Source: a virus. Taken from it: DNA of 64,000 nt. The notes under the pieces were generated by a model. It made no database searches and had not been told where the DNA came from. It saw nothing but the letters and a program-made list of their open reading frames with translations. Of this stretch, positions 7,035 through 58,572 are shown in pieces. The stretch's first letter is position 1. Each line of letters begins with the position of its first letter. The stretch spans positions 11,248-75,247 of the IMG/VR virus record IMGVR_UViG_3300009374_000001. One strand, 5' to 3'. Both the position numbers and the translations under genes were made by a program.

Positions 7035-8822
7035 ATGGGAGATATAGTACTGACAACAGCGGGTTTACCAATAAGCGAAGGCGGATACGCATTACTTCGT
7101 GAATTAGAAAATGGTGAACTTTATAACACAGAGACCAGTATGTCATATACTGTATCAGAAATAGCAGATGTTGTTTTAGGCTATTTTGATGCATACAATT
7201 TTGATAATTTTTCTCAATTACCAGATACTGAAGGAATACCTGCAGGCTCTCCTGTCGTGTTAGAGAATACCTCATTTCACTTAACTTGGGCCGAAGCATT
7301 GACCACTTGGGAAAATTTAGATACAAACGGATTAATAACATATTCTTTTACTATGGACAATTTACAGGTCGGAACAGTGTTTGGCATAGAGAATAAAGCA
7401 ACAGGTGAAAAAGCAGAAACCACAATGATTGATGGAGATTCTATTAAAAATATATTTGATAAAATTGTTGCAACAAATGCAAACTTTTTAAGTTCATTCA
7501 ATATTTCCTTTATGGATGAAAGCGGTGATGGAAATGATGATACGATGCTCTTAAAAAGAAATACTTCTGTGCATGCAGATATCGACTTAATAGCATATCC
7601 AAGGTATAAAGGAGAAGGGAGACCTGCTTTATTGTTAACAGTTGATTCTTCTACGAACATTAATACATGGGAAAGTATTGGGAATGGTAATTTTTATGAA
7701 GTAGAATGGTTTATTGAAAAAGAAAGCAATGAGTATGAAGATTTTTACTATGAATCTAGAGGGCTAATATCAACGCACAATAAACTTGCATTAATATTGC
7801 CATACCCAGGCAATTATAATGTAATTATGAAGTTGTATGACTCATTTAATAATGTTGTTTTAAATCACAATAAAGAAAGCATTACTGTACACCCATACGA
7901 AGCTGAAATAGCTGGAGTATATAAAACACTTGGAGATGAAGTTACATGGGAGAATGCAAAATATAGCTGGGAAGACTTTACATCAACATGGGAATTACCA
8001 TTTTTACCAAAAGATATGCCGAGAGAAGAACTTAAATACTTGTATGGAAGCTTAAGTAGAAGTGGCTTTCCTGCTAGTGATAACCTTGATATGGCAATGT
8101 CATTAAGATATATAGATGATAGCGATGATGGGTTTTCTACACTCCCTGGTCCTTATAGATGGGATAACTTAGAGGATGCAACATGGGAAGATACTAAGCA
8201 TATTTGGTGGGATGCAACTCTGTTAGGGATTAATACTCCAGCCTCTTTTAGAATTAACACTGTTAGTAATGGAGGTACTTTAAGTATTGTTCAGCAGTTA
8301 CCTATCCCAGATATTGGGACGATAGAATTTACGAGTAATATTCTTTCAGATGCAGTAAATCTATTAAATGCATCAACAGCACCAGTATTTAGTAAGTATG
8401 AGTATAAACTTATAATTGATACAGATACTGGCGTTGAATACTTTATACTTGCGATTGCTAAAGAGCTTGGGGAAAGCGGAGATTGGTATCATATAGAACC
8501 AAATAACATTGAGCTAAGTCATTTAAACTTACACAAAGATTTAGGTTATACGCAGAATAATTCAATTATATTTGAAGAACACCAAGAATTACCAAAGCTT
8601 ACCCATGTTGTATTTTCTGCTGACCATTCTAGAATACCTGGAAAGACGAAAGCTAAATGGACATTGAATTACAATGATAATATAAGCGAGGATATATATT
8701 CAAACAGTAAATACTTTTCTTATCTTTTTAAGAAAGCTGGTAATTATACATTATCTTTAGAATTAGAAGATTCAAATGGAAATGTATATAACAAAAATAA
8801 AAATATAATAACAATAAAATGA
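7035..8822 (+). CDS. Putative virion structural protein with PKD/Ig-like segments
   Basis: PGNYNVIMKLYD and AGNYTLSLELEDSNG PKD-like strands; Trp-rich TWE repeats. Confidence 0.5.
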   Translation: MGDIVLTTAGLPISEGGYALLRELENGELYNTETSMSYTVSEIADVVLGYFDAYNFDNFSQLPDTEGIPAGSPVVLENTSFHLTWAEALTTWENLDTNGLITYSFTMDNLQVGTVFGIENKATGEKAETTMIDGDSIKNIFDKIVATNANFLSSFNISFMDESGDGNDDTMLLKRNTSVHADIDLIAYPRYKGEGRPALLLTVDSSTNINTWESIGNGNFYEVEWFIEKESNEYEDFYYESRGLISTHNKLALILPYPGNYNVIMKLYDSFNNVVLNHNKESITVHPYEAEIAGVYKTLGDEVTWENAKYSWEDFTSTWELPFLPKDMPREELKYLYGSLSRSGFPASDNLDMAMSLRYIDDSDDGFSTLPGPYRWDNLEDATWEDTKHIWWDATLLGINTPASFRINTVSNGGTLSIVQQLPIPDIGTIEFTSNILSDAVNLLNASTAPVFSKYEYKLIIDTDTGVEYFILAIAKELGESGDWYHIEPNNIELSHLNLHKDLGYTQNNSIIFEEHQELPKLTHVVFSADHSRIPGKTKAKWTLNYNDNISEDIYSNSKYFSYLFKKAGNYTLSLELEDSNGNVYNKNKNIITIK

Positions 8823-9262
8823 AACTAACAGAAGCACAATTAAGAGAAACTATCCAAGAAGTTATTAAAGAAGATGGAATTAATGAAGCTAAAGGTGAAG
8901 AAGCTAAAGCAATCTACAAAGAGTTTACAGATCTTGTTAAAGAATATAGAAAAAAAATTAAAGCTAAGGTTCTTCAAACGGGGCGCGGGTCTCATAGCTT
9001 AAACTTTGGCATTGAATCATTTTCTCATCACATTTTACCACAAACCACTGTTTATTTTGTAGATGAAAGTATTTTTGGTGATGATTCTCACGAGATAGAA
9101 AAAGTAAGTTTTTCTTCAAGCAACATGGAAAGTAAAAAAGATTTAGACGTTTTCATTACATTACTAAAAGAAATTCAAAACAATTGGGAATTAATGGAAG
9201 AATATAAAGAAAAAGAAAAAGAGATTCAAGCAAGACTTGATGACCTACGTACAAAAAAATAA
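8819..9262 (+). CDS. Hypothetical protein with helical leader (candidate head-packaged protein)
   Basis: N-terminus MKLTEAQLRETIQEVIKEDGINE, a leader shared with five other ORFs. Confidence 0.6.
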   Translation: MKLTEAQLRETIQEVIKEDGINEAKGEEAKAIYKEFTDLVKEYRKKIKAKVLQTGRGSHSLNFGIESFSHHILPQTTVYFVDESIFGDDSHEIEKVSFSSSNMESKKDLDVFITLLKEIQNNWELMEEYKEKEKEIQARLDDLRTKK

Positions 9263-9270
9263 ATTAGACT

Positions 9271-9891
9271 ATGTCAATTACAACAAAAGAGCTATCAGCA
9301 ACAGCTTCATTATATCAGTCAAGATTTGATATTAACGAAAATTTTGCTATAGTAACAGATGCGATTAATGATGTACATGCGTATTTAGATGTAGATGCAC
9401 AGATTTTAGACGGCATGACGAATGTTAAGTCAAATGCACTTTCAATTGGAGATCAAGCAGATCCTTCATTTTCAGTGACATCAAGCTTAGCGTCATTTAC
9501 ATGTCCTATAACTTTTAATGATCTTGCAACATTTAATAAACCAGTTATTAGTCCATCATACGCAGATAAAACATTCGATGGCGGTTCTACATATACTTTA
9601 AGTGAAGTTTCAAGCGACCCAGATAACGTATATAAGCTTAAGGTTGCTAACGGAGACGGGAGCGACGTTAATGTAACTTTACCAGCTGGGGCAAACGGAC
9701 AAAAAGTTATGCTAATCTCAGAAGATTCATCAGATTTTACAGGTAAAGAAATGATTATAACATCAGATTCATTGTTATTGCCAGGTTCTAGTACTATGGT
9801 AAAATTTACAGGACAGAATCAAACTGCAACATTTATACAGGTAGATAACAACTGGTATTTGGAATCATCTTTTGGCATTACTGTAGCATAA
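9271..9891 (+). CDS. Putative virion structural protein
   Basis: SRFDINENF N-terminal motif and beta-rich C-terminus (VTLPAGANGQKVMLI...TATFIQVDNNWY). Confidence 0.5.
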   Translation: MSITTKELSATASLYQSRFDINENFAIVTDAINDVHAYLDVDAQILDGMTNVKSNALSIGDQADPSFSVTSSLASFTCPITFNDLATFNKPVISPSYADKTFDGGSTYTLSEVSSDPDNVYKLKVANGDGSDVNVTLPAGANGQKVMLISEDSSDFTGKEMIITSDSLLLPGSSTMVKFTGQNQTATFIQVDNNWYLESSFGITVA

Positions 9892-9910
9892 ATAAAAGAA
9901 AATAATAACA

Positions 9911-25173: not shown

Positions 25174-25532
25174 TGGAAGATGTAGTACAAGAAATAACAA
25201 CTGAGCTTATAGGTAAATATGGCTGGATGGCACTTGCATTTTTTACTCTTTCTATATTTAGAAACACTATAACAGAAATGATAGAGGCGTTAGGCATTTT
25301 TATTGGAAATGATTTTAATAATGATGATGTAATATATGTAAATGGCAGAGAAGCCAGAATTATTAGAGTTACTTTAAGAAAGACAGTTTTTTATATGGTT
25401 GAAGAAAATACAAAGATGGTAGTTAAAAATACAAGATTAAAGTCTTTAACACTGGAGAAAAAATTACCAAATACTGAGTATAGACAAAAATATATAGAAA
25501 TGAGAAACAAACATAAAAAAGATAATATATAA
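25173..25532 (+). CDS. Small membrane protein with MscS-like beta domain
   Basis: N-terminal hydrophobic helix, then FNNDDVIYVNGREARIIRVTLRKTVF...VVKN. Confidence 0.5.
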   Translation: MEDVVQEITTELIGKYGWMALAFFTLSIFRNTITEMIEALGIFIGNDFNNDDVIYVNGREARIIRVTLRKTVFYMVEENTKMVVKNTRLKSLTLEKKLPNTEYRQKYIEMRNKHKKDNI

Positions 25533-25535
25533 TTT

Positions 25536-25913
25536 ATGGAAACATTTTTAGAATTTATAGAAAAGGAAGATAAAATTTCAGAAGCTGAAGTTGAATCGCT
25601 TAATGAAAATCTCAAGTCAGAATTAACTGAAGAAGAAGAAGCTGAAGTTGATGCAGCAATCGATGCGTTTGTTGAAGAGTACTTAGATAAAGGAAAAACA
25701 CTCGCGGATCTTAATGAAGAAATGACAAATGAAGGCATACTTGGTGGTATATTTGGTGGACTTACCGGATTTGCATTTGGCAAGAGTGTAGGAAAGCTTA
25801 TTGCAAAAGTCTTAGGAATTAGTAAAGGAGTTTTATATGACTTATTGACTTCAAGACTTGTAGGGGCAGCTCTTGGTGCGGCAATTGGAAATAGTTTAGG
25901 TAAGAAAAAATAA
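25536..25913 (+). CDS. Glycine-zipper protein with acidic N-terminal pro-region and CTS-like start
   Basis: METFLEFIE..., acidic helix to MTNE, then GILGGIFGGLTGFAFG and LVGAALGAAIG. Confidence 0.6.
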   Translation: METFLEFIEKEDKISEAEVESLNENLKSELTEEEEAEVDAAIDAFVEEYLDKGKTLADLNEEMTNEGILGGIFGGLTGFAFGKSVGKLIAKVLGISKGVLYDLLTSRLVGAALGAAIGNSLGKKK

Positions 25914-25924
25914 AATAAGATAAA

Positions 25925-26263
25925 ATGAAAACATCAGAATTACAAAAAATAATTAGAGAAGAAATTCAAAGCTTGAATGAAGGCAACATTGCAATAAACA
26001 CTAAGCATAGATATTGGTATGGTGTAGATTCTCCAGAAAAGCAATCTGATAAATTTTTAGTTGCAAATAAAGGTGTTGATAAGAAAAAAATAGAAAATAA
26101 AGATTTACAAATATGGATTACTAAATTTGTAAAAGATAATAAATTAAAAGATGCTTGGGATTATAATTGGATTGCAATGTTTTGCTATTCTATGAAGTAT
26201 ACAAATAAATATAAAAACGTTGATTTAGGTAAAATGGACGAATGGGCAAGAAAAAACCATTAA
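25925..26263 (+). CDS. Hypothetical protein with helical leader
   Basis: MKTSELQKIIREEIQSLNE N-terminus. Confidence 0.6.
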   Translation: MKTSELQKIIREEIQSLNEGNIAINTKHRYWYGVDSPEKQSDKFLVANKGVDKKKIENKDLQIWITKFVKDNKLKDAWDYNWIAMFCYSMKYTNKYKNVDLGKMDEWARKNH

Positions 26264-26926
26264 TTGAAAGACATTTTCATAGGCATAGACTTTAGTCTTA
26301 AAAGCCCAGGCATTTGTATTTATAAAGATAACACGTATAAGTGGTTAAGCTTTATTTCACTTGATAAAAAACACACAAAGAAAGAGATTAAAGTCATTGA
26401 AGAACTTTCTACATTAGCAGATGTTGAGGTTATAGAATTAATTTCAAGAGATATTAAAAAGAAAGTATTGCGTTCAGAATTTGAGAAACTCAGGCTTTAC
26501 ACAGATAATGCATTACTCATATTAAAACATCTTAAGTTTGCAATTGGACAGAGGACAGATGATACAAGTTTACACTTTATATTTGAAGGATATAGCTATG
26601 GAAGTCAAACAAATAATTTGATAGACATTGTAGGAGCTACCACAATCTTAAAAAACATGATAATATTGGAATTCATATATGCAGAAGATTCTATGATAGT
26701 TCTTGCTCCTACTACTATTAAGAAACAAGCAGGTCATGGGAGATATAATAAAAGAGAATTATGGGATGTCTTTTCAGAGAATAGACTAGGTGATAAAGAT
26801 ATAGTGAAGTCAGATTTTTATAACTTTGCAAAAGAATTAGAAATAGGTAAGAAAGTCTATGCACCATTAGATGACTTAGTTGATTCATACTTGGTTATTA
26901 ATGCAGGAATTAGATTAAAAGATTAA
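26264..26926 (+). CDS. RuvC-like Holliday junction resolvase
   Basis: IGIDFSLKSPG, IFEGYSY, PTTIKK and DDLVDSY RNase H-fold acidic motifs; TTG start. Confidence 0.75.
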   Translation: MKDIFIGIDFSLKSPGICIYKDNTYKWLSFISLDKKHTKKEIKVIEELSTLADVEVIELISRDIKKKVLRSEFEKLRLYTDNALLILKHLKFAIGQRTDDTSLHFIFEGYSYGSQTNNLIDIVGATTILKNMIILEFIYAEDSMIVLAPTTIKKQAGHGRYNKRELWDVFSENRLGDKDIVKSDFYNFAKELEIGKKVYAPLDDLVDSYLVINAGIRLKD

Positions 26927-26930
26927 ATAC

Positions 26931-27941: not shown

Positions 27942-27951
27942 GGTATAACTA

Positions 27952-33211: not shown

Positions 33212-33481
33212 ATGAAACAATCAGAATTAAGAAAACTAATTAGATTAACAATTAAAGAGCATATGAATGAAGATTCTTCTGGATCATTTCGGTCTAAGAA
33301 GCAAGTAGAACGGTTGACAAAGGGCAAATCTATTCGAGAAACATTTGTAAACCCATCGGTTGAATATAACGTTACTAACGATGGCGGTATTGTAATTTTT
33401 GGTAAAAGAGAAAAAGTTCATTTTACAAAGCAAGACGTTGAAGCTTTAGTAAAACAACTTAAAAGAAAAGGGATTGCTTAA
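33212..33481 (+). CDS. Small hypothetical protein with helical leader
   Basis: MKQSELRKLIRLTIKEHMNE. Confidence 0.6.
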   Translation: MKQSELRKLIRLTIKEHMNEDSSGSFRSKKQVERLTKGKSIRETFVNPSVEYNVTNDGGIVIFGKREKVHFTKQDVEALVKQLKRKGIA

Positions 33482-34068
33482 TGATTTTAGAGTTTAAACA
33501 ATTCGTAGAGTCTATCCAGTCTGAACATACCGGAGAGAAGGTAATTATATTCCCTGGGAGATTTCAGCCATTTCATAATGGGCATCTTAAAGCATTTGAA
33601 AAAGCTTATAAAATGTTCAAGTTAAGAGTTATACCTATACAAATAGTTAGTAAGAATAAGAACTCTCCAATTAAAGACAAAAAGCTCTTACAAGATATGG
33701 GTAATGCATTAGCAAAAGAGAATAAGAAGTTTATTGCAGATATACTGGTAAAGCCTGACAATGTTATGGGAAATATACCGCAAATGATTAAATGGCTTAG
33801 AAGCATTGGTTATAATCCAATGGGCATGGGAACTGGTGAAGATAGATATAAAGGCTATAAAGGCCAAATTGATTATCTTTTATCAGATAAGTCAGATGTG
33901 CCTACAGAAGAATTTGAATTAAAGGTAGTAGATGATAGAACAAGTGGTGCAAGTGGAACCGCAGTAAGACATGCATTTCAAGATGATGACGCAGATGCAC
34001 TTAAAGCGATGATTCCAGAGGTACTATTCTTTAAATTTTATAATAAAATAAAAAAAGCAATACAATGA
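33481..34068 (+). CDS. HIGH-family (cytidylyl/adenylyl-transferase-like) nucleotidyltransferase
   Basis: IFPGRFQPFHNGH, GEDR and SGTAVR; leader MILEFKQFVE. Confidence 0.85.
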   Translation: MILEFKQFVESIQSEHTGEKVIIFPGRFQPFHNGHLKAFEKAYKMFKLRVIPIQIVSKNKNSPIKDKKLLQDMGNALAKENKKFIADILVKPDNVMGNIPQMIKWLRSIGYNPMGMGTGEDRYKGYKGQIDYLLSDKSDVPTEEFELKVVDDRTSGASGTAVRHAFQDDDADALKAMIPEVLFFKFYNKIKKAIQ

Positions 34069-35072
34069 AGATAACAGAACAGAAATTGAGAAAACTTATA
34101 CAAGAAAACATTAAGACCCTTACTGAAAAACTTAAAAGATCATCTAGTGAATATGATAAATTTGAACAATGGCTAATCACTCTTGATCAAATGACAGTTG
34201 GTCATATACTTGACACGTTTGGGACAAAGTTACCAGACGGAGCAGATTTTGATACACCAGGCTATTTCCAAGATGAAGAACTTGACTACGACGATGCTTA
34301 CGATTTCTTTAGGAGTAACATGGGTGCATCTTGGGTTCAAGATATGGAAAAGTTTTATAGCAAAAATAAATCTAAATGCGATAAATACACAGAAAGATAT
34401 ACAAAGCAACTTAAAATCTTTAACGAAAATCATTTAAATGAAAAAGACGTATGGTCTATTAAAGGCTTAGACTCTTCAGATCAACAGGATGTTAATTTAA
34501 TGAAGCGCGCATTTGAACTTGCAAAAGTTAAAATTATAAAGATAGAAAAATATAACGATAGAGCTTACTTTATTACTTTAATTGCAAAAGATGGCAAAGC
34601 CATTATTGATACAGAGATTGATACTTTAAGTAATGTCTTTTATATGAATGATAATAGAGGCAGAAATAAAATCGGCACACTGCATAGAACAAGTGAAGTT
34701 GTTAAGGGTATTAAAGCTCTTGCAAAACTTCCAGGATTTGGACAAACAAGCTTAGTTAAAGTTAAAGAGTCTTTGGACGAAACATATAAGCTTCGCAAAA
34801 TTATTAGAAAAGAACTTCAAACTTTGAATGAAGCTAAGATGAGCAAGAAAGAATATCAAGAAGCAGCAAAAGAATTTGTTAATCAATGGGAAGATGATTT
34901 TAAACAAAGAATCAAAGATGACGGCGGATTTGATTATGAAGAAATGACATATGACACTGCTCAAGCTAATAACTTATGGAACGATGGACCTAAGATGGAC
35001 GCAGATTGGTTATATGACTATATAGAAAAAGAATTAGAAAAGCGACAGTGGTATAAAAAATACACAAAATAA
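34065..35072 (+). CDS. Multi-module hypothetical protein with N-terminal and internal helical leaders
   Basis: MKITEQKLRKLIQENIKTLTE; internal HLNE; internal YKLRKIIRKELQTLNE. Confidence 0.6.
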   Translation: MKITEQKLRKLIQENIKTLTEKLKRSSSEYDKFEQWLITLDQMTVGHILDTFGTKLPDGADFDTPGYFQDEELDYDDAYDFFRSNMGASWVQDMEKFYSKNKSKCDKYTERYTKQLKIFNENHLNEKDVWSIKGLDSSDQQDVNLMKRAFELAKVKIIKIEKYNDRAYFITLIAKDGKAIIDTEIDTLSNVFYMNDNRGRNKIGTLHRTSEVVKGIKALAKLPGFGQTSLVKVKESLDETYKLRKIIRKELQTLNEAKMSKKEYQEAAKEFVNQWEDDFKQRIKDDGGFDYEEMTYDTAQANNLWNDGPKMDADWLYDYIEKELEKRQWYKKYTK

Positions 35073-35082: not shown

Positions 35083-35310
35083 GTGAAAGAGCAAGAATTA
35101 AGAAAACTTATTAGAAAAGAGCTTAACGAACGTATTTCTGGTTATGATGAATTTGATGTAGCAGTTAAAATTGATTCTGCTATGGAAAAGCTTGACAAAA
35201 ATATGGGAGTTGAAGTATTTGCAAAGGGTATTGCTAATATGTTTAATGACGTATATGGGAAAGAATATGCAAAAGATTTTTATGAAAATATTAACAAAAA
35301 ATATCAATGA
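35083..35310 (+). CDS. Small hypothetical protein with helical leader
   Basis: GTG start, MKEQELRKLIRKELNE. Confidence 0.6.
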   Translation: MKEQELRKLIRKELNERISGYDEFDVAVKIDSAMEKLDKNMGVEVFAKGIANMFNDVYGKEYAKDFYENINKKYQ

Positions 35311-40792: not shown

Positions 40793-40800
40793 ATATATAA
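40792..40800 (+). promoter_or_regulatory. Candidate late promoter
   Basis: AATATATAA before ORF 40819. Confidence 0.4.
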
Positions 40801-40818
40801 AAAAACAAATATAAAATT

Positions 40819-41166
40819 ATGACTAAAATTTATGAAAACTTTGAAGACTTTGTTTTTAATGAACTTAATAAAGAAATTGATATTGAACTAGTTGATGAAA
40901 GAGTTGAGGTTAAGCGTAAATACACAGATAAATATCCATCTAAATCCATTAACGCAAAAGCAAGAGTTAGAAGTGCAGTGCTAAGTGCAATGAAAGATGG
41001 GATAGTTACTGAAGAGGAACTTGATAATATTATAGCTGCAGCACAGGGCAGTAAAGCATGGAAGCGTAAAAATACTAAGCTTTTTAAAGTTACAGAAGAT
41101 GGCATTAAACTTTCAAAATTTGGTTCACGAATCTATAGAAGAACTCTAGTTACAGAGGAAAAATAA
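40819..41166 (+). CDS. Small basic hypothetical protein with CTS-like leader
   Basis: MTKIYENFEDFVFNE...LVDE, then a basic domain. Confidence 0.55.
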   Translation: MTKIYENFEDFVFNELNKEIDIELVDERVEVKRKYTDKYPSKSINAKARVRSAVLSAMKDGIVTEEELDNIIAAAQGSKAWKRKNTKLFKVTEDGIKLSKFGSRIYRRTLVTEEK

Positions 41167-41588
41167 TGCCATCTAAGTCAATCGCACAGCAGCGTCTGTT
41201 TGGGATGGCTCTTGCATATAGAAGAGGAGAGCTTAAAAAGTTTGAAATATCTCAAGAAGTTATTGATCTTGCAAATTCAATGTCTGAAAAAGACTTAGAA
41301 GATTTCGCTGAAACTAAGCATAAAGATTTACCATACAAAGTTAAAGAAAATATAGAACTTAATGATATTTCAGGTATGGGAGATGTAGCACTACCTAATA
41401 TGCAAACGCATAATATAGGAAGTGGGGATATGCCGTTTGGGCATCATTATTGCAAATGTTTAAATTGCGGCGAAGTTGCAATTAAAGATGAAGAGGTTTC
41501 ATGCGAATTAATGACTTGTCCTGTATGTCAAAATTCTATGGTAAATGAAAGAAAGTATATAAAAAAATATATTGACTATGTTAGATAA
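41166..41588 (+). CDS. DUF3008-like protein with C-terminal zinc ribbon
   Basis: MPSKSIAQQRLFGMALA...MSEKDLEDFAETKHKDLP; CLNC...CPVC. Confidence 0.6.
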   Translation: MPSKSIAQQRLFGMALAYRRGELKKFEISQEVIDLANSMSEKDLEDFAETKHKDLPYKVKENIELNDISGMGDVALPNMQTHNIGSGDMPFGHHYCKCLNCGEVAIKDEEVSCELMTCPVCQNSMVNERKYIKKYIDYVR

Positions 41589-41970
41589 ATTATTAACATT
41601 TTTTACAGGTAATACAATAAAAGAAATAGGAGATGCTGTAGATAATCTTGTTACGAGCGACGAAGAACGTATGAAGCTAAAAACTGAAGTAAAGCAGATT
41701 TTAGTAAATGCAGAAGAAGCTGCGCAAGAACAAGTTTCTGCCAGATGGGAAAGTGATATGAAGCATGGTAGTTTTTTAAGTAAGAATGTTAGACCATTAA
41801 GCTTAATATTTTTAACTTTAATGTTTGTTGTAATATCTATATTTGATGGTAACATTGGGGAATTTCAAATAAATGATTCATATATCCCAGTTTATCAAAC
41901 TCTATTAATGACAGTATATGGTGCATATTTTGCAGGCAGAAGTTTTGAAAAGATTAAAAAATCAGAGTAG
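41572..41970 (+). CDS. Holin (3TM/GTA-holin-like)
   Basis: RWESDM..SFLSKNVRPL, two hydrophobic helices, AYFAGRSFEK. Confidence 0.7.
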   Translation: MTMLDKLLTFFTGNTIKEIGDAVDNLVTSDEERMKLKTEVKQILVNAEEAAQEQVSARWESDMKHGSFLSKNVRPLSLIFLTLMFVVISIFDGNIGEFQINDSYIPVYQTLLMTVYGAYFAGRSFEKIKKSE

Positions 41971-41978
41971 ATAAATAG

Positions 41979-42008
41979 ATAAACAATTACATCATTATTT
42001 TATATAAT
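41979..42008 (+). promoter_or_regulatory. Candidate early/middle promoter ATAAAC-N18-TATAAT
   Basis: Precedes the dUTPase-RNR-polymerase operon. Confidence 0.55.
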
Positions 42009-42024
42009 AATTAAAAATTATTGT

Positions 42025-42480
42025 ATGAAATTTTATAAATTAAGAGATGTTAAAAGTCCGGTTCGTGGCACAAAAGAAAGTGCAGGATTGGACTTTTTTA
42101 TACCAGATGATTGGAATGATGGTAATACTAAATTAGTAAAACCAGGTGAAAGCTTATTAATACCGAGCGGTATTAAAGCAAATGTCCCTAAAGGATTTGC
42201 ATTAATAGCTTTTAATAAATCAGGAATTGCAGTTAAAAAACAATTATATGTAGGTGCTTGTGTAGTAGATGAAGATTACCAAGGAGAAATTCACATTAAT
42301 GTAAGCAATGTATCTAGGGATACTGTAACAGAGGTTAGCCCTGGGGATAAAATCATGCAATTTTTATTATTACCTATAAATTATGAATTACCAATCGAGG
42401 TAAATTCAGAAGAAGAATTATGGAAAGACAAAGCCAGTGAAAGAGGCACTGGTGGCTTTGGATCAACTGGAACAAATTAA
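42025..42480 (+). CDS. dut: Trimeric dUTPase
   Basis: SAGLDF, KSGIA, VVDEDYQGEI, MQFL and RGTGGFGSTG. Confidence 0.95.
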   Translation: MKFYKLRDVKSPVRGTKESAGLDFFIPDDWNDGNTKLVKPGESLLIPSGIKANVPKGFALIAFNKSGIAVKKQLYVGACVVDEDYQGEIHINVSNVSRDTVTEVSPGDKIMQFLLLPINYELPIEVNSEEELWKDKASERGTGGFGSTGTN

Positions 42481-42494
42481 CGTAAAGAATATAA

Positions 42495-44996
42495 ATGACA
42501 GTAATTGACGTTGGGCATTCATCAGAATTATTAATTGACTATTTTAATGGAGATGAATTAGCAGCAAATACTTTTTTGAATAAATATGCACTTCGAGATG
42601 AAGATGGTAATTTACTAGAGCATCACCCAGATGAAATGCATATGAGACTTTCAAGAGAATTTGCAAGAATAGAACGAAAGTATAAAAACCCATATAGTAA
42701 AGATGAGATATATGATTTACTAAAAGACTTTAAGTATCTTGTACCACAAGGAAGTCCGATGTTTGGGATTGGTAATAAGCACCAAGTCATTTCATTGTCA
42801 AATTGCTTTGTGATTGGTAATGGTGCTGATTCTTATGGCGGTATTACAATGGTTGATGAAGAGCAGATACAGCTTATGAAACGAAGAGGTGGTGTAGGCC
42901 ATGATCTTTCTCATATAAGACCTAATAAAACTAAAGTGCATAATTCTGCAATGACCTCAACCGGTTTAAAGCCATTCATGCAGCGATTTTCAAATTCAAC
43001 TAGAGAAGTTGCACAAGGAGGTCGAAGAGGAGCACTAATGCTCACGCTTGATATTAGACATCCAGACGTTGAAAGTTTTATTGATGCAAAGATGAATAAG
43101 ATTGACATAACTGGTGCTAATATTTCATTAAAATTAAGTGATGAATTCATGAGAGCTGTTGATGCTAATAAAACATTTAAGCTTCAATATCCAGTAGAAT
43201 CTGAAAATCCGAAGATAGAACTTGATATTGACGCAAAGTCTTTATGGGATCATATTATCAATAATGTTTGGTCAAGCGCAGAACCTGGTATATTTTTCTG
43301 GGATAAAGTGCTAAGCGAGTCACCAGCAGATATGTATGCAGAAGAAGGCTTTAGAACTATCTCCAGCAATCCCTGCGGTGAGCTCCCTCTCTGTCCTTAT
43401 GATTCTTGTAGACTTTTAGCTATAAATTTATCAAGTTATGTTGAAAACGAATTTACAGAAGATGCAAGTTTTGATTTTGATTTATTGGCAGAACACACAA
43501 AGATTGGTCAAAGACTTTTAGATGATATGATTGACTTAGAAATTGAAAAGATTAATGCAATTTTAAGAAAGATAAGTTCTGACCCTGAGAACAATAGTAT
43601 TAAAAGAGTTGAAAGAGAACTTTGGCAAAAGATAAAAGAAAAGGCTATACAAGGAAGAAGAACTGGGTTAGGTGTAACTGCAGAAGGCGATATGCTTGCA
43701 TATATGAATATGCAATATGGCTCAGATGAGGCAATAAAATTCTCAGAACAGGTTCATAAGTTAATAGCGGTTAGTTCATACGTAAGTTCTATAGAGCTTG
43801 CTAAAGAAAGAGGCTCATTTCCAATTTGGGATTATGACACAGAGAAAGAAAATGATTTTCTTAAACGAATCGATATGAATTTATCTATGCAACAAAGAAA
43901 AGATTATAAAAGATATGGTAGGAGAAATATTGCAAACCTAACTCTTGCGCCTACTGGTACTGTAAGCATGATGACTCAGACTACATCAGGGATTGAACCG
44001 GTATTTCTTATTCAATATACAAGAAGAAAGAAAGTAAACCCAAATGAAATTGCAACATCAGATTTTGTAGATGATCTAGGCGATGCATGGACAGAGCATA
44101 CTGTATTTCATAATGGTTTTAAAAGATGGATGAATATAAATGGGATATTTGGTGAGCTTAATGATGAAGAGATAGAAAAATTTGTAAAAGAATCCCCATA
44201 TTACAAAGCAACATCAAATGACATTAACTGGGTTCAAAAAGTTAAAATGCAAGGCGTAATACAAAAATGGATAGATCACTCAATTTCAGTTACAGTGAAT
44301 GTACCACAAGATACTAAAAAGTCAACAGTAAATGAGGTTTATATGACTGCATGGAAAGCTGGATGTAAAGGTGTAACTTTATATAGAGAAGGGAGTAGAA
44401 GTGGTGTACTAATTGCAAAAGAAAAGAAAGAAGAAGAAAAGTTTGAAAAAATGGCAGCAGTTGAAAGACCTAAGACATTAGAGTGCGATATACACCACAG
44501 AATAGCAACGGGGGAGGCGTGGTTGGTTATTGTAGGAAAGTTATTGGATAAGCCTTATGAAATATTTGCATTTAGAAAATGGACAGAAGATGAAGAGTCT
44601 GAAGATAAATTTAATCTGCCACGTTATATCAAGCTAGGCAGACTTGAAAAGAGGTCTCATGGGAAATATGATTTAATTTGTGGTAAAAACGATAACTTCA
44701 TCGTAAAGGATATTACAAACCTGTTTAAATCAGAGGAAGAAGAAGCATTAACAAGATTAATTTCATCTGCGCTTCGACATAGAATGGGCGTTGAATATAT
44801 CGTCGATCAATTAAATAAAGTCCCATCGAATATTACAAGTTTTAGTAAAGTTGTTGCTAGAACGCTGAAACAATATATCACAGAAGATATAGAATTAATA
44901 AATAAAACATGTACAGAATGCGAAGATCCTGACGGACTAATTATTCAAGATGGATGTTTAAGTTGCAAAAGTTGTGGTTTTAGTAAATGTGGATAA
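42495..44996 (+). CDS. nrdJ: Class II (adenosylcobalamin-dependent) ribonucleotide reductase
   Basis: SLSNCFV, QGGRRGALM, SNPCGELPL, APTGTVS and GCKGVTLYR; C-terminal domain with CxxC...CxxC...SKCG. Confidence 0.9.
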   Translation: MTVIDVGHSSELLIDYFNGDELAANTFLNKYALRDEDGNLLEHHPDEMHMRLSREFARIERKYKNPYSKDEIYDLLKDFKYLVPQGSPMFGIGNKHQVISLSNCFVIGNGADSYGGITMVDEEQIQLMKRRGGVGHDLSHIRPNKTKVHNSAMTSTGLKPFMQRFSNSTREVAQGGRRGALMLTLDIRHPDVESFIDAKMNKIDITGANISLKLSDEFMRAVDANKTFKLQYPVESENPKIELDIDAKSLWDHIINNVWSSAEPGIFFWDKVLSESPADMYAEEGFRTISSNPCGELPLCPYDSCRLLAINLSSYVENEFTEDASFDFDLLAEHTKIGQRLLDDMIDLEIEKINAILRKISSDPENNSIKRVERELWQKIKEKAIQGRRTGLGVTAEGDMLAYMNMQYGSDEAIKFSEQVHKLIAVSSYVSSIELAKERGSFPIWDYDTEKENDFLKRIDMNLSMQQRKDYKRYGRRNIANLTLAPTGTVSMMTQTTSGIEPVFLIQYTRRKKVNPNEIATSDFVDDLGDAWTEHTVFHNGFKRWMNINGIFGELNDEEIEKFVKESPYYKATSNDINWVQKVKMQGVIQKWIDHSISVTVNVPQDTKKSTVNEVYMTAWKAGCKGVTLYREGSRSGVLIAKEKKEEEKFEKMAAVERPKTLECDIHHRIATGEAWLVIVGKLLDKPYEIFAFRKWTEDEESEDKFNLPRYIKLGRLEKRSHGKYDLICGKNDNFIVKDITNLFKSEEEEALTRLISSALRHRMGVEYIVDQLNKVPSNITSFSKVVARTLKQYITEDIELINKTCTECEDPDGLIIQDGCLSCKSCGFSKCG

Positions 44997-45006
44997 AGGA
45001 ATTTAA

Positions 45007-46410
45007 ATGCTATTAAGTATTGAGCAAGATGATAATAGATTAACTGTTTCGTATTATGATAAAGAAGGTGAAACAGCATATAAGATATATGATTTAAATC
45101 AATTTAAAAATTGGTATGTTTGTCATGATGGTGATAGATATAAATCTGATATTTACACGAATTGGGATGGGAGACCTGTTAAACAAGCAAATGCAAAGTT
45201 TTTAAATAAACATAGTATTATTGATTTTTTGCAAACTCTGCCTCAAGAAGATAAAGACTTAATTTTTGCACACAATTATCCAAAGATGTATTTTATGGAT
45301 ATTGAAGTTGAAGTAACTGATGGCTTCCCAGAAGCAAAAAAAGCAGAAAATAGAATTATTACAGTTTCTATAGCAACGCCTGATAAAGAAATTATAATCT
45401 TAGGGTTAAAAGATCTTTCTCCTAATGAAATCACAAATATCGAAATTGATATACATAATCATTTTCTTAAAGTTACAGATGATACTTGGAAATTAAAGTA
45501 TATTAAGTTTAATTCTGAGTATGATATGGTATATACGCTATTGACTAAATATATAAGTAAATTGCCCATTATATCTGGGTGGAATTTCATAAGCTACGAT
45601 TGGACATATATTATTAATCGCTGCTATAGATTACAAATAAACCCAGATATTGCAAGCCCTTCATTAAAACTAGAAGGTGCTGATAACACGCCAATGCATG
45701 TTGGTATTGTAGATTATATGAGACTCTATCATCAGTATGATAGGACAGTAAAAGTTAAAGAATCATCAACTTTAGCGCATGTTTCGAATATAGTACTTGG
45801 TGTATCTAAAGTTAAAAACAATATGAATCTTAAATTACTATATGAGCAGAAATATGCTCAATATGTTTTTTACAATGCCGTTGATTCTATATTAGTTCAT
45901 ATGCTTGATCAAAAGCTCAAGCTAGCAGATGTGCTATATACAGTTGCAAGTATGACTAAATCAACTTTATACAGAGCAAGTTCTCCTGTTACTATAACAG
46001 AAAGTCTTTTGCTACCGCTATTTAAGCAAAATAACAAGGTATTAGCAAGAGATAATGCTGAAAAACAGAAAAAAATAAAGTACACTGGCGCGTACGTTAA
46101 AGCACCGAAGGTCGGGTTTCATAAGGGCGTTGCTTGTTTTGACTTTGCAAGTCTATATCCATCTATGATGAGACAATTTAACATATCTCCAGAAAATTTA
46201 AAAAATAAGGTGCCTCCAGTAGCTGTTGAAAAAACTAAAAATGAAAGTAATATAGTAACTATTAATGGCTGCGTCTTTGATAAAGAAGACTCATATCTTA
46301 GAATGATTTTAACAGCTCTATATGCTAAGCGAAAAGAGTATAAGGGAAAAGCGTTTAACGCAAAGTTAAAAATGGAAAAAATAAAGAAACAATTAAAAGA
46401 AATTAAATAA
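45007..46410 (+). CDS. Family B DNA polymerase, N-terminal subunit (exonuclease, motif A, first finger helix)
   Basis: MDIEV, GWNFISYD, YNAVD, YTGAYV and FDFASLYPS; ends after KRKEYK. Confidence 0.9.
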   Translation: MLLSIEQDDNRLTVSYYDKEGETAYKIYDLNQFKNWYVCHDGDRYKSDIYTNWDGRPVKQANAKFLNKHSIIDFLQTLPQEDKDLIFAHNYPKMYFMDIEVEVTDGFPEAKKAENRIITVSIATPDKEIIILGLKDLSPNEITNIEIDIHNHFLKVTDDTWKLKYIKFNSEYDMVYTLLTKYISKLPIISGWNFISYDWTYIINRCYRLQINPDIASPSLKLEGADNTPMHVGIVDYMRLYHQYDRTVKVKESSTLAHVSNIVLGVSKVKNNMNLKLLYEQKYAQYVFYNAVDSILVHMLDQKLKLADVLYTVASMTKSTLYRASSPVTITESLLLPLFKQNNKVLARDNAEKQKKIKYTGAYVKAPKVGFHKGVACFDFASLYPSMMRQFNISPENLKNKVPPVAVEKTKNESNIVTINGCVFDKEDSYLRMILTALYAKRKEYKGKAFNAKLKMEKIKKQLKEIK

Positions 46411-47402: not shown

Positions 47403-48548
47403 ATGAACTTAAATGACTTATCAAAAGAAGATCTAAAGCACCAATACGATATAGCAGAATCAGAATCTTTAAAATTTAGAAATTATGAACAAGCTGTAAA
47501 GTTAATTTTAAACTCAATGTATGGAGCTTTTGGCAATAACTATTTTCATTTTTTTAATATTGACTTAGCAGAAGCAATTACACTACAGTGCCAAGATGCA
47601 ATATTGTATACTGAGGTTGCTATCAATAAATATTTTAATGATTTTTGGCATAAAGATAAGGAATTACATAAATTATTAGATATTGAAGTTACTGATTCAA
47701 TTAAGGACGCCGTAGTTATATATATTGATACAGATTCTTGTTATGTTTCATTTGAAGAAGTTTATCAAAATGCAAATTATGATGGTGATGTAACAGAATT
47801 CATTAAAGACATATATGAATATAGATTAAAAAACTATATTAAAAATGTACTTTATAAATATTCGGATAAATGGAACACTGATTCTTTTTTAAAGTTTGAA
47901 TTAGAAACTATTGCATATTCTGCAATTTGGCTATCAAAAAAGAAATATATTCAAAACATTGCATGGGAAGATCCTGGCATTGATCATAACAAGTTAGAAT
48001 TTATTAAAGCTACAGGTTTTGAAATTGTCCAATCATCAAGCCCTAGCTTTGTAAGAACTAAATTAAAAGAAGCTTTAATTTTAATGTTTAAAGATGATAA
48101 TCCAAATTTAAGTGAACTTGTTTCATTTCTTAAAGATGTTAAGAAAGAATTTAAGTTAGCAAATATTGAAGAAATTAGCTTTAGTAAACGAGTCAATAAC
48201 ATTGAAAAATACATTATAGATGATTATTCACATTTTGAAGTTGCAAAATCTTGCCCAATAAATGTAAGAGCAGCAGGGTATTATAATTATCTTTTAAACA
48301 ATTCAGAATATAAGAGTAAGTATCATAATATACCAAGTGGTGAAAAAGTTAGAATATATTTTACAGATGACAATTTATCTAACGTATTTGCATTTATGCC
48401 TGATGAGCATCCGTATGAATTTGCACCTAACGTTGACTATGATTTGCAATTTGAAAAGTCAATATTAGATCCGCTGAACAGAGTTATTAAAGCAGTAGGT
48501 TTAAAGACTCTTAATTCGAACTTAATTTATGCAAAAACACTTTTTTAA
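47403..48548 (+). CDS. Family B DNA polymerase, C-terminal subunit (motifs B and C, thumb)
   Basis: KLILNSMYG, YIDTDS, KKKY and GFEIVQSS. Confidence 0.9.
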   Translation: MNLNDLSKEDLKHQYDIAESESLKFRNYEQAVKLILNSMYGAFGNNYFHFFNIDLAEAITLQCQDAILYTEVAINKYFNDFWHKDKELHKLLDIEVTDSIKDAVVIYIDTDSCYVSFEEVYQNANYDGDVTEFIKDIYEYRLKNYIKNVLYKYSDKWNTDSFLKFELETIAYSAIWLSKKKYIQNIAWEDPGIDHNKLEFIKATGFEIVQSSSPSFVRTKLKEALILMFKDDNPNLSELVSFLKDVKKEFKLANIEEISFSKRVNNIEKYIIDDYSHFEVAKSCPINVRAAGYYNYLLNNSEYKSKYHNIPSGEKVRIYFTDDNLSNVFAFMPDEHPYEFAPNVDYDLQFEKSILDPLNRVIKAVGLKTLNSNLIYAKTLF

Positions 48549-57195: not shown

Positions 57196-57669
57196 ATGGG
57201 TATAAAAGATGTAAAACCTTCTAAAGGCAGGCCATATAACCAGGGCTATTACCGACTAATAAACGAGTCTAAGTATGTTGGTGAGCACCCAATCATCTAC
57301 AGAAGTAGCTGGGAAAGGAAATTTTGCATTTATTGTGATAAAAAAGCTGAAATAATTAAATGGAGTTCTGAGCCATTAGGCATAAAATACATAAATCCTC
57401 TTTCTAATAAAGAAAGCATATATTACCCAGATTTTTACATGGAAGTTTTACAAAAAGATAATACAGTAAAGAAATTTTTAGTAGAGATTAAGCCAAAGTC
57501 TCATTTACAGAAGCCAAAGAAACCTAAATTAAATAGAACAAGCTCAATAAAAAGTTTTAAGTATTTAGCAAACGAGTATATGAAAAACGTGGTTAAGATA
57601 AAAGCAGGAAAAGAATATGCAAAGTCTAAGGGTTGGGATTTTATTGTTATTACAGAGGATAGTATATGA
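57196..57669 (+). CDS. Head completion nuclease, gp4-like (TnsA fold)
   Basis: YRSSWE, WSSE, YYPDF, VEIKP and FIVITE; start taken at ATG 57196. Confidence 0.88.
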   Translation: MGIKDVKPSKGRPYNQGYYRLINESKYVGEHPIIYRSSWERKFCIYCDKKAEIIKWSSEPLGIKYINPLSNKESIYYPDFYMEVLQKDNTVKKFLVEIKPKSHLQKPKKPKLNRTSSIKSFKYLANEYMKNVVKIKAGKEYAKSKGWDFIVITEDSI

Positions 57670-58253
57670 CATCTTTTTTAACTAAAGTAAATAATATGAT
57701 TAAGGAGAATCATGGAAAAGCTAAAGCAGCAAATGTTGCAAAGACATGGTTTAACAAGGGTAGGTCTATAGGAATTAAACATGCTCCAACGAGATTTAAA
57801 CCAGGGAAGATTTATATATTTAGGTATGAAGACCCAAAGACGCCTAATTTACCCTGGTGGGATAGAAACCCTATAGTTTTGAGTTTAGGCTGGGAAAAGA
57901 AAAATGATATAGGAATCAACCTTAATCTTTTACCACACAAGCCAAGAATGGCTATTTTGGACAAGGTATATAGTGTATATGAACAAGAGATTAAGAGAGC
58001 AATGAATGTTAAAAAAGGAAGAGATCGTACATTAAGAGAAAAACCACTTAATCTTAATTATGATAAAATTAAGCCATACTTAGAAAGATATGGTTTTAAG
58101 TTTGCAGTTAGACAATATATTCCTAATTTAAAATCAAATCAAGCTTTAGTATCTTATGATAAGTGGACTTATGTTGCAATGCTTGATTTAGTAGATATTG
58201 CGGGAGCAGATATTAACGAAGTGTATGATGAATTCTACAACTATACAAAATAA
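57666..58253 (+). CDS. DNA end protector, gp2-like
   Basis: PGKIYIFRYEDPKT..LPWWDRNP and GINLNLLP. Confidence 0.8.
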   Translation: MTSFLTKVNNMIKENHGKAKAANVAKTWFNKGRSIGIKHAPTRFKPGKIYIFRYEDPKTPNLPWWDRNPIVLSLGWEKKNDIGINLNLLPHKPRMAILDKVYSVYEQEIKRAMNVKKGRDRTLREKPLNLNYDKIKPYLERYGFKFAVRQYIPNLKSNQALVSYDKWTYVAMLDLVDIAGADINEVYDEFYNYTK

Positions 58254-58258
58254 TTATT

Positions 58259-58270
58259 GATATATAATAA
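58259..58270 (+). promoter_or_regulatory. Candidate late promoter
   Basis: GATATATAATAA before the leader-bearing ORF and portal. Confidence 0.5.
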
Positions 58271-58287
58271 AACAATGAATATTAAAA

Positions 58288-58572
58288 ATGAAACTAACTA
58301 AAACACAGCTGAAGCAAATCATAAGAGAAGAAATCTTAAGTTTGCACGAAGAAGTTACACCAGATAAACTTGAAACTTTTAGAGATGTAGATAAAGATAC
58401 AATTTATATTATACCAAAAGTTAAATTTACTGGAAATATTAAGAAAGATATAGAAGCTACTCTTGAAATTACAGGAGAGTTTTTATATGCAGATTTAGGC
58501 ACAGACGAGGGGATAACTGATAAAAAGAAAAAGATTGTGTATTGGGGATCTGATGTACAAGACAATTTATAG
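58288..58572 (+). CDS. Small hypothetical protein with helical leader
   Basis: MKLTKTQLKQIIREEILSLHE. Confidence 0.6.
   Translation: MKLTKTQLKQIIREEILSLHEEVTPDKLETFRDVDKDTIYIIPKVKFTGNIKKDIEATLEITGEFLYADLGTDEGITDKKKKIVYWGSDVQDNL

What the first reader, a model, noticed from the sequence alone, without database searches (positions are those of the whole stretch)
8819..58572. Second, helical leader class (MKxxELRKLIREEIxxLxE) on six dispersed small genes
Seen: MKLTEAQLRETIQEVIKEDGINE (8819), MKTSELQKIIREEIQSLNE (25925), MKQSELRKLIRLTIKEHMNE (33212), MKITEQKLRKLIQENIKTLTE (34065), MKEQELRKLIRKELNE (35083) and MKLTKTQLKQIIREEILSLHE (58288). The downstream domains are mutually unrelated, and the genes are inserted singly between conserved late genes. 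Inference: a second amphipathic-helix packaging signal, distinct from the T4 CTS but ending at the same protease site, that docks on the scaffold and carries small variable effectors such as anti-defence proteins.
Basis: partly seen in the sequence, partly recalled or inferred. Interest (0 to 1): 0.85.

Follow-up and report, generated by a model that had tools for sequence, protein, structure and literature searches.

The report
Conserved leader peptide on phage cargo genes
Six small genes of this marine T4-related phage begin with the same ~20-residue peptide ending in a T4-protease-type cut site, and the same tag heads thousands of unrelated small proteins in uncultured phages, so it is probably an undescribed address label for loading proteins into the phage head.

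Summary
All six ORFs start with the motif, and a seventh copy lies inside the 335-aa ORF. A profile of the seven scores them at 22-32 bits; the next best frame in the contig scores 7 bits.

The leader is not a local oddity. A profile search found 7,709 protein clusters (50% identity) that carry it. It is almost always at the N-terminus (consensus MKLTKSQLKEIIREEIQKLNE) and is followed by unrelated, mostly unannotated sequence.
- Conservation is at the peptide level: invariant residues use several synonymous codons.
- Conservation stops sharply after the final Glu. The end reads [L/I]-x-E, then mostly A, G or S, which is the T4 gp21 cleavage pattern.
- The leader was confirmed in viral contigs and in none of 185,579 cellular species genomes.
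- All 23 larger leader-bearing viral records carry several copies. 15 of the 23 also encode a gp21-type protease, including all three near-complete ones.
- Copies often flank the protease gene. A conserved gene directly upstream of it in related marine phages has a degenerate version.

The best reading is a new capsid-targeting or propeptide class (confidence about 0.55). Cleavage, packaging, the docking partner and any anti-defence role are untested. The window's closest portal relatives lack the leader.

Earlier first-reader notes of this scan on the same genome proposed the same reading; they are not independent evidence.

The parts
8819..9262 (+). Leader gene 1 (147 aa). The leader is residues 1-23 (nt 8819-8887), MKLTEAQLRETIQEVIKEDGINE|A. 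It is the most divergent copy.
   Evidence: (27 bits). A promoter-like TATATAACAAAA lies at 8785.
25925..26263 (+). Leader gene 2 (112 aa). The leader is residues 1-19 (nt 25925-25981), MKTSELQKIIREEIQSLNE|G. The mature part is basic (pI 9.5).
   Evidence: (32 bits).
33212..33481 (+). Leader gene 3 (89 aa). The leader is residues 1-20 (nt 33212-33271), MKQSELRKLIRLTIKEHMNE|D. The mature part is basic (pI 10.1).
   Evidence: (30 bits).
34065..35072 (+). Leader gene 4 (335 aa) with two copies. The N-terminal leader is residues 1-21 (nt 34065-34127, ...KTLTE|K). The internal copy is residues 237-256 (nt 34773-34832, ...QTLNE|A) and begins at a TTG codon. It reads as a fused pair of leader-tagged units.
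   Evidence: Proteins with several leaders are common elsewhere.
35083..35310 (+). Leader gene 5 (75 aa, GTG start). It has a short leader, residues 1-16 (nt 35083-35130), (M)KEQELRKLIRKELNE|R.
   Evidence: (22 bits).
58288..58572 (+). Leader gene 6 (94 aa). The leader is residues 1-21 (nt 58288-58350), MKLTKTQLKQIIREEILSLHE|E, the copy closest to the global consensus. It lies between the gp2-like gene and the portal gene.
   Evidence: An exact promoter-like TATATAATAAAA lies at 58261.
60255..62144 (+). gp21-type prohead protease (about residues 1-185) fused to a scaffold-like part with YxxYLGENL repeats and an acidic tract. It is the presumed processing enzyme and one possible docking partner.
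   Evidence: phrog_207 at 9e-42; sequence read; full-length homologues in portal relatives.
58594..60186 (+). Portal protein (gp20-like), GTG start.
   Evidence: phrog_213 at 1e-76. Its N-terminus aligns with the MAGF... starts of relatives.
62163..63509 (+). Major capsid protein (gp23-like). Its N-terminal region holds INE sites at residues 4-6 and 23-25.
   Evidence: phrog_138 at 1e-40.
57666..58253 (+). gp2-like DNA end protector, the upstream neighbour of leader gene 6.
   Evidence: phrog_429 at 4e-25.
58261..58272 (+). Promoter-like TATATAATAAAA in front of leader gene 6. Identical 12-mers stand in front of the protease-scaffold gene (60217), the gp55-like sigma gene (56801) and gene 31182 (31151).
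   Evidence: 17 matches at up to 1 mismatch against 7.6 expected; 0 of 100 shuffles reach 17. The role as a promoter is inferred.

Best explanation
The roughly 16-23-residue N-terminal peptide is a transferable leader (propeptide) of T4-superfamily phages. The proposed mechanism has three steps.
1. The leader brings an otherwise arbitrary protein into the assembling prohead core.
2. The gp21-type prohead protease then removes it by cutting after the terminal Glu of its [L/I]-x-E end.
3. The mature cargo stays in the head with the DNA and can enter the host at infection.

Shown here:
- the leader is modular and strictly N-terminal;
- it is conserved at the peptide level;
- conservation has a sharp boundary at the Glu;
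- its end is T4-like (P3 L/I, P1 E, then a small residue);
- it was confirmed only in viral contigs;
- it co-occurs with gp21-type proteases and is often adjacent to them;
- leader-like N-termini occur on conserved genes directly upstream of the protease.

Inferred only: cleavage, packaging, the binding partner, ejection and what the cargo does. In this window the six genes (seven leaders) would be cargo of the protease-scaffold protein encoded at 60255-62144.
For: 1. Scale and modularity.
- A profile of 53 leaders finds 7,709 clusters (50% identity) at E<=1e-3 among 1.84 billion representatives.
- Of 120 word-search hits, 106 have the leader within the first 12 residues, and most of the rest are directly preceded by MK.
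- 232 mature parts fall into 147 BLASTP clusters, 114 of them singletons.
- Of 98 carriers, only 5 Pfam and 8 PHROG families were hit, each by one member.

2. Selection acts on the peptide, not the DNA.
- Invariant L8 uses five codons and invariant I12 uses three, about evenly.
- Upstream DNA is not conserved.
- Column entropy jumps from about 0 at E21 to more than 3 bits from residue 22 on.

3. Cleavage-site anatomy. Of 115 unique leader ORFs, 103 have [LIMVF]-x-E at residues 16-30, most often with the Glu at 21. P3 is L in 72 and I in 21; P2 is N in 45; the residue after the Glu is A in 24, G in 22 and S in 11. T4 gp21 cuts after a Glu in a short motif and has little other specificity, and the IPIII CTS is removed at Glu10 (PMC9026906).

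4. Distribution.
- 61 IMG/VR loci were confirmed.
- All 23 records over 35 kb carry 1-21 copies, commonly in tandem arrays.
- phrog_207 protease is present in 15 of the 23, including 3 of 3 records at least 90% complete. The 8 without it are 12-25% fragments.
- The scan of 185,579 cellular species genomes gave 85 pattern matches and none confirmed.

5. Position.
- Leader genes lie on one or both sides of the protease gene in G006, G007, G017 and G023, and beside it in G020.
- They also bracket it in the 484-kb phage LR756508.1.
- In 40 of 56 marine loci, the ORF directly upstream of the protease starts with a leader-like M(x0-3)I[TS][KRI]...; 36 of these fit the tighter pattern ending in EE.

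6. In the window.
- Gene 58288 occupies the gp2|portal junction, which is uninterrupted in three relatives.
- In a fourth relative that junction holds a gene with a T4-CTS-like start.
- Gene 58288 shares an exact 12-mer promoter-like element with the protease-scaffold gene.

7. Cargo charge. Mature parts are mostly basic (median pI 9.45; 76% above 8), like the T4 internal proteins (PMC9026906).

8. Precedent. T4 internal proteins share only a CTS and are otherwise diverse defence-countering proteins (PMC3012670).
Against: - There is no proteomic or biochemical evidence for cleavage or packaging, and no cultured phage carrying the leader was found.
- The window's nearest portal relatives lack the leader: five IMG/VR records, LR756500.1 and Lak-C1.
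- Of 80 loci whose protease is 70-79% identical to that of a leader-bearing phage, 78 lack canonical copies within 10 kb. The leader is therefore dispensable and patchy in distribution.
- The same leader occurs with very different head genes, which fits poorly with docking on a fast-evolving scaffold.
- In three large genomes (G016, G022, G025) the leader arrays lie far from the head genes.
- The N-E-G/A/S end could partly be a helix-capping signal rather than a protease site.
- Four of the window's six mature parts are acidic.
- No base rate of phrog_207 among random viral contigs was measured.
Confidence: 0.55

Rival explanations
1. The leader is an uncleaved shared interaction or oligomerisation helix. 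It would recruit diverse small proteins to one common partner unrelated to the capsid, such as a phage hub or chaperone or a conserved host machine, or simply make them multimers.
For: - It is predicted helical and moderately amphipathic.
- Polar positions T4, R13, E14 and E15 are as conserved as the hydrophobic ones, which suggests a specific partner.
- The leader is nearly the same in phages with very different scaffolds.
- Arrays lie far from the head genes in G016, G022 and G025.
Against: - It does not explain the fixed N-terminal position.
- It does not explain the invariant terminal Glu with L/I at P3 and the abrupt loss of conservation right after it.
- It does not explain the link with gp21-type proteases or the leader-like starts on genes next to the protease.
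Confidence: 0.25
2. The leader marks paralogues of a prohead-core (assembly) protein. The carriers would be structural or scaffolding accessories that are degraded during maturation, like T4 gp67 and gp68, and not cargo delivered to the host.
For: - Conserved genes directly upstream of the protease in marine T4-like phages carry leader-like N-termini, at the position T4 gives to genes 67 and 68.
- Leader genes are inserted in head modules.
Against: - The mature parts are extremely diverse (147 clusters from 232 sequences).
- There are up to 21 copies per genome and 7,709 clusters in all. That is not the pattern of a structural component.
- The leader HMM shows no similarity to T4 gp67, gp68 or gp22.
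Confidence: 0.12
3. The conservation reflects a signal in the nucleic acid: a translation-initiation enhancer, an RNA structure, or a recombination site for shuffling gene cassettes.
For: The first codons are A-rich (ATG AAA ...), and the genes often stand in tandem arrays where recombination could spread a shared 5' end.
Against: - Invariant residues are encoded by three to five different codons.
- Upstream DNA is unrelated between copies.
- The leader is kept across genomes that differ in GC content and in Shine-Dalgarno use.
Confidence: 0.03

Closest known systems
T4 capsid targeting sequence (CTS) of internal proteins IPI, IPII and IPIII, removed by the prohead protease gp21
   Same: - A short N-terminal peptide shared by otherwise unrelated small proteins.
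- It ends in [L/I]-x-E, mostly followed by a small residue.
- The genome encodes a gp21-type protease.
- The cargo is hypervariable and mostly basic.
- The genes are scattered or stand in small arrays (PMC3012670, PMC9026906).
   Different: - There is no sequence similarity to the T4 CTS (10 residues, quoted from memory as MKTYQEFIAE), and none to the T4 head proteins tested with the leader HMM.
- The leader is twice as long (about 21 residues).
- It is far more numerous: up to 21 per genome and 7,709 clusters.
- It is known only from uncultured marine phages and huge phages.
- Function is untested.
- A T4-CTS-like class (MKxxSFxxFxNE) coexists with it in the same window.
Propeptides of inner-body and ejection proteins in phiKZ-like giant phages (201phi2-1, phiKZ gp175, SPN3US gp245)
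   Same: Many head proteins are processed after a Glu by a distant gp21 homologue, and the propeptides are thought to target proteins into the prohead (PMC9026906; PMC5694885).
   Different: - From established knowledge, those sites read S/A/G-x-E. Here P3 is L or I in 93 of 103 leaders.
- Those propeptides are not one conserved leader sequence.
T4 prohead core proteins gp67 and gp68
   Same: They are small genes between the portal and protease genes that are processed by gp21. Leader-like genes occupy that position in marine T4-like phages.
   Different: No detectable sequence similarity to the leader.
Encapsulin cargo-loading peptides, and conserved-leader/variable-payload systems such as double-glycine bacteriocin leaders and polymorphic toxins
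   Same: The logic is the same: a short conserved tag addresses diverse payloads to one compartment or exporter. Encapsulin shells share the HK97 fold with phage capsids (established knowledge).
   Different: - Encapsulin tags are C-terminal and are not cleaved.
- Double-glycine leaders end in GG and are cut by C39 peptidases.
- None of these resembles the leader in sequence, and none was tested here.

Membership tests
T4-type capsid targeting sequence / gp21-processed internal proteins | N-terminal peptide homologous to the T4 IP CTS (about 10 residues, MKTYQEFIAE type) | tested here: not met
   The leader is about 21 residues with consensus MKLTKSQLKEIIREEIQKLNE. The CTS itself was compared only by eye, from a sequence recalled from memory; the IP genes were not fetched. 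The leader HMM gives no signal on T4 gp67, gp68, gp21, gp22, gp23 or gp24. A separate CTS-like class exists in the window.
T4-type capsid targeting sequence / gp21-processed internal proteins | The peptide ends in the gp21 cleavage motif ([L/I]-x-E, then the cut) | tested here: met
   The window's leaders end in INE, LNE, MNE, LTE, LNE, LHE and LNE. Of 115 leaders, 103 have the motif; P3 is L or I in 93, and the next residue is A, G or S in 57.
T4-type capsid targeting sequence / gp21-processed internal proteins | The genome encodes a gp21-type prohead protease | tested here: met
   The window ORF 60255-62144 matches phrog_207 at 9e-42. The protease is present in 15 of 23 leader-bearing records, including 3 of 3 near-complete ones.
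T4-type capsid targeting sequence / gp21-processed internal proteins | One leader on unrelated mature domains | tested here: met
T4-type capsid targeting sequence / gp21-processed internal proteins | The leader is necessary and sufficient for incorporation into the prohead, and gp21 removes it | not testable with these tools
   This needs virion proteomics or a protease assay. No cultured host-phage pair was found.
phiKZ-like propeptides | Cleavage motif S/A/G-x-E | tested here: not met
   P3 is L, I, V or M in all 103 scored leaders.
Encapsulin cargo-loading peptide | C-terminal, uncleaved targeting peptide | tested here: not met
   The tag is N-terminal in 106 of 120 hits, and most of the rest are directly preceded by MK.
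Double-glycine (C39 peptidase) leader | The leader ends in GG or GA | tested here: not met
   The leader ends in Glu; there is no GG.

The most novel reading that the evidence does not exclude
The leader is one of several interchangeable address codes, together with the T4-CTS-like class in this window. With them, marine T4-superfamily phages and some huge phages would load dozens of fast-evolving proteins per genome into the capsid for injection. That would make thousands of 'dark matter' proteins readable from sequence alone as virion-delivered effectors, and would give a portable 21-residue tag for packaging foreign proteins.
Probability: 0.4. Interest if true: 0.8.

Novelty: new variant of a known kind. 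Interest (0 to 1): 0.68.

Why it matters
If the leader is a capsid-targeting propeptide, a 21-residue motif identifies at least 7,700 protein clusters from uncultured ocean phages as probable virion cargo. Such cargo is the first phage material to meet host defences.

That would turn a large block of unannotated viral proteins into a defined, testable set for anti-defence and host-takeover screens. It would extend the T4 internal-protein model well beyond enterobacterial phages. It would also show how a targeting tag spreads between very different head lineages.

If instead the leader is an uncleaved interaction helix, it is still one of the most widespread conserved peptide modules in marine phage genomes, and the partner it binds would be worth finding.

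Tried and rejected
- Complex prediction, leader 40-mers against the protease-scaffold protein: no verdict. It is not used either way.
- AlphaFold2 of the 335-aa ORF without an alignment: mean pLDDT 39.9, unusable. It only shows helices over residues 5-23 and 237-256.
- ESM Atlas look-up of the 25925 protein: feature scores of 0.78 and TM below 0.5. No lead.
- tblastn of two leader proteins against 50,697 deposited phage records: the only match was a weak one in the uncultured LR756508.1. The search space makes matches of 21 residues borderline, so divergent copies in cultured phages are not excluded.
- Full-text search for leader strings and for related concepts: no paper describes this leader. 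Subscription journals are not covered.
- Leader HMM against T4 gp67, gp68, gp21, gp22, gp23 and gp24: no similarity.
- Signal at the DNA level: rejected by codon analysis.
- T4-type late promoter TATAAATA upstream of 110 marine leader genes: not enriched.
- The search for related loci with the 7035-8822 protein, to test synteny around 8819: no relatives.
- Metatranscriptome contigs laid on 25500-45499: short RNA-library contigs cover parts of the region but none of the four leader genes, and they cannot show transcription anyway. No conclusion.
- TAG=Q reading, which would fuse 58288 to the portal: rejected. Portal homologues start at the aligned MAGF, long ORFs contain no in-frame TAG under table 11, and no tRNA was found.
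- Chance or composition as an explanation: rejected.
Full report
**What the window is.** The window is 64 kb of a 75-kb IMG/VR fragment estimated to be 22% complete. GC content is about 0.31 and all genes are on the + strand. The DNA occurs in marine and seawater metagenomes from two studies.

It has a T4-type head module:
- gp4-like head-closure gene (57166);
- gp2-like DNA end protector (57666);
- portal (58594);
- a 629-aa gp21-type protease fused to a scaffold-like part with YxxYLGENL repeats and an acidic tract (60255);
- gp23-like capsid protein (62163);
- a gp55-like late sigma factor (56823).

Upstream lie unannotated large genes and a tail-tube gene, then replication genes. The nearest relatives by portal (58-68% identity) are 17 IMG/VR contigs and the 462-kb uncultured phage LR756500.1. 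Lak megaphages are more distant.

**The observation.** All six ORFs start with the quoted peptides, and 35083 uses a GTG start. A seventh copy lies inside the 335-aa ORF at residues 237-256 and begins at a TTG codon. A profile of the seven scores them at 22-32 bits against all six-frame ORFs of the contig; the next best frame scores 7 bits. A second tool recovers 7 of 7. The mature parts are unrelated to each other and match no family.

**The leader is a very large family.** A word-indexed search with the 40-residue N-termini returned 381 proteins. The 120 listed are small metagenomic proteins, and nearly all begin MKLTKSKLKEIIREEIQKLNE followed by unrelated sequence. In 106 of the 120 the leader starts within the first 12 residues, and most of the rest are directly preceded by MK, which points to miscalled starts.

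An exhaustive profile search with 53 leaders found 7,709 clusters at 50% identity with E<=1e-3. Many proteins hold two to four copies. Internal copies are usually preceded by ...ENKMK, which looks like an in-frame reading of a ribosome-binding spacer between tandem genes. The window's double-leader ORF is one example of this.

From 232 carriers, the mature parts form 147 BLASTP clusters, 114 of them singletons. Pfam and PHROGs recognise almost none of them. No named organism or cultured phage carries the leader: the sources are marine metagenomes, plus two metagenome records labelled as a bacterium and an archaeon that are probably phage contigs binned by mistake. I found no paper that mentions the motif.

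**Selection acts on the peptide.** Among 40 canonical 21-residue leaders, invariant L8 is encoded by five codons and invariant I12 by three, in near-equal use. Upstream DNA is unrelated between copies. Amino-acid entropy is about 0 at E21 and above 3 bits from residue 22 onwards. This rejects a DNA- or RNA-level signal and places a module boundary exactly at the Glu.

**The end looks like a T4 cleavage site.** Of 115 unique leader ORFs, 103 have [LIMVF]-x-E at residues 16-30, most often with the Glu at 21. P3 is L in 72 and I in 21; P2 is N in 45. The residue after the Glu is A, G or S in 57. In T4, gp21 cuts after a Glu within a short motif, and the 10-residue CTS of IPIII is removed at Glu10 (PMC9026906). 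T4 internal proteins share only the CTS and are otherwise diverse (PMC3012670). The new leader shows no similarity to the T4 CTS by eye, and its HMM gives no signal on T4 gp67, gp68, gp21, gp22, gp23 or gp24.

**Distribution.**
- A pattern scan of IMG/VR confirmed 61 loci.
- All 23 records over 35 kb hold 1-21 copies, often in tandem arrays.
- 15 of the 23 encode a phrog_207 protease, including all three records at least 90% complete. The eight without it are 12-25% fragments.
- The same kind of scan over one genome from each of 185,579 bacterial and archaeal species gave 85 pattern matches, none confirmed.
- The 484-kb uncultured phage LR756508.1 has 23 matches, and one cluster brackets its protease-scaffold ORF.
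- Leader genes lie next to the protease gene in G006, G007, G017, G020 and G023, but far from it in G016, G022 and G025.

I did not measure the base rate of phrog_207 among random viral contigs.

**A conserved head-module gene carries a degenerate leader.** I looked at 80 marine loci whose protease is 70-79% identical to that of a leader-bearing phage. Only two have canonical leaders within 10 kb. Yet in 40 of 56 loci with a complete ORF directly upstream of the protease, that ORF starts M(x0-3)I[TS][KRI]... Examples are MKITKSKLKELIKSTIQEES and MNITRETIKDTLRAIMAEET; 36 of the 40 fit a tighter leader-like pattern.

The next gene upstream, a roughly 150-aa family with a GYNTP-x-AF motif, also has a leader-like start. 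These genes sit where T4 has the core genes 67 and 68, but they match no PHROG. This ties the leader family to the prohead-core neighbourhood. It also suggests, by inference, that the canonical leader spread from such a gene onto many cargo genes in some lineages.

**The window's own context.**
- In relatives L016, L014 and L021, the gp2-like gene and the portal are adjacent.
- In L004 that junction holds a 387-aa gene with a T4-CTS-like start.
- L016 and L014 have a CTS-like 114-aa gene between portal and protease.
- In the window, the same junction holds leader gene 58288.
- That gene is preceded by TATATAATAAAA. The same 12-mer stands before the protease-scaffold gene, the sigma-factor gene and gene 31182, and one-mismatch copies precede 8819 and 34065 (17 matches against 7.6 expected).

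So two kinds of leader occupy equivalent slots in head modules. That the 12-mer is a promoter is inferred.

**What argues for caution.** The window's closest relatives lack the leader: five IMG/VR records, LR756500.1 and Lak-C1. The same search on the window's own contig finds all seven. The window's head genes are very far from those of the leader-rich marine phages (portal about 27%, protease about 35% identity), yet leader 58288 matches the global consensus at 16 of 21 positions. A fast-evolving scaffold is therefore an unlikely common partner; the protease or another conserved component fits better.

Amphipathicity is moderate. Mature parts are mostly basic overall (median pI 9.45), but four of the window's six are acidic. 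Nothing here shows cleavage, packaging or function.

**Verdict.** The best-supported mechanism is a new class of N-terminal prohead-targeting propeptide removed by the gp21-type protease (confidence about 0.55). The rivals are:
- an uncleaved shared interaction helix (0.25);
- a family of core-assembly paralogues rather than delivered cargo (0.12);
- a nucleic-acid signal (0.03).

It works like the T4 CTS but is not a member of that sequence family. I rate it a new variant of a known kind.

Earlier first-reader notes on this same genome proposed the same reading, and also the polyprotein reading of ORF 34065. They are not independent evidence.

Noticed in passing
window 25536-41166 (starts at 25536, 31182, 31522, 32812, 33481, 35307, 36188, 37090, 37494, 40819): A second family of N-termini resembles the T4 CTS (for example MKIKSYTNFINE, MGIIKTFENFINE, MRLHSFKDFVNE, MILEFKQFVE). 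It sits on at least ten genes, including a cytidylyltransferase-like protein (33481) and an RNase T-like exonuclease (36188). The three clustered leader genes lie among them.
   Followed up: partly
window 31151, 56801, 58261, 60217 (exact); 1068, 3252, 8785, 34037, 40794, 41556, 63604 (one mismatch): The 12-mer TATATAATAAAA recurs on the + strand about 25-40 nt upstream of start codons. It precedes the protease-scaffold gene, the gp55-like sigma gene and leader gene 58288. It is a candidate late promoter of a T4-like kind. No Shine-Dalgarno sequences are visible in this window.
   Followed up: partly
window 58288-60216: Leader gene 58288 and the portal ORF are in the same frame, separated by one TAG and seven codons. 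Under TAG=Q they would form a single 642-aa ORF. Portal homologues start at the aligned MAGF, so this is probably coincidence.
   Followed up: yes
window 60255-62144: The gp21-type protease is fused to a scaffold-like region that holds several YxxYLGENL-type repeats (about residues 236-330) and a long acidic tract (about residues 355-425). The portal relatives share this fusion; the leader-rich marine phages have a separate protease of about 200 aa.
   Followed up: partly
window 41166-41588; L086:6177-6434; L087:9039-9479; L103:11147-11662: A gene starting MPxxSxxQQ+xFG.ALAxKRGE is shared between the window and the head modules of marine T4-like phages. In many of those it lies next to the protease.
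   Followed up: no
L087:8273-8722 (-) versus L088:12346-12804 (+): One mature domain (53% identical, with an HWDG motif) sits behind two different leader forms: MKITKSKLREIIREEIQLITE and MRKLIYEQIDKKWNDYILTE. The second looks like the first with an insertion. This is direct evidence that the leader varies or is swapped on a fixed cargo.
   Followed up: partly
LR756508.1 152-162 kb, 186-191 kb, 218-220 kb: A 484-kb uncultured huge phage carries 23 leader matches in three clusters, all on one strand. One cluster surrounds its protease-scaffold ORF (about 157.8 kb).
   Followed up: partly
proteins P0157-P0292: Many database proteins hold two to four leaders. Internal copies are typically preceded by ...ENKMK, as if a ribosome-binding spacer (GAG AAT AAA ATG AAA) were read in frame. 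These may be true fusions, or tandem genes merged by gene callers.
   Followed up: partly
window 25947-25982 and 33204-33244 (run X1): Short contigs from the source metagenome match only the leader-coding DNA of genes 25925 and 33212, at about 90% identity. They are probably leader genes of other phages in the same water sample.
   Followed up: no
window 45007-46410 and 47403-48548: Two ORFs, separated by two small genes, lie in the replication region. They may be parts of a split DNA polymerase. This was not checked.
   Followed up: no
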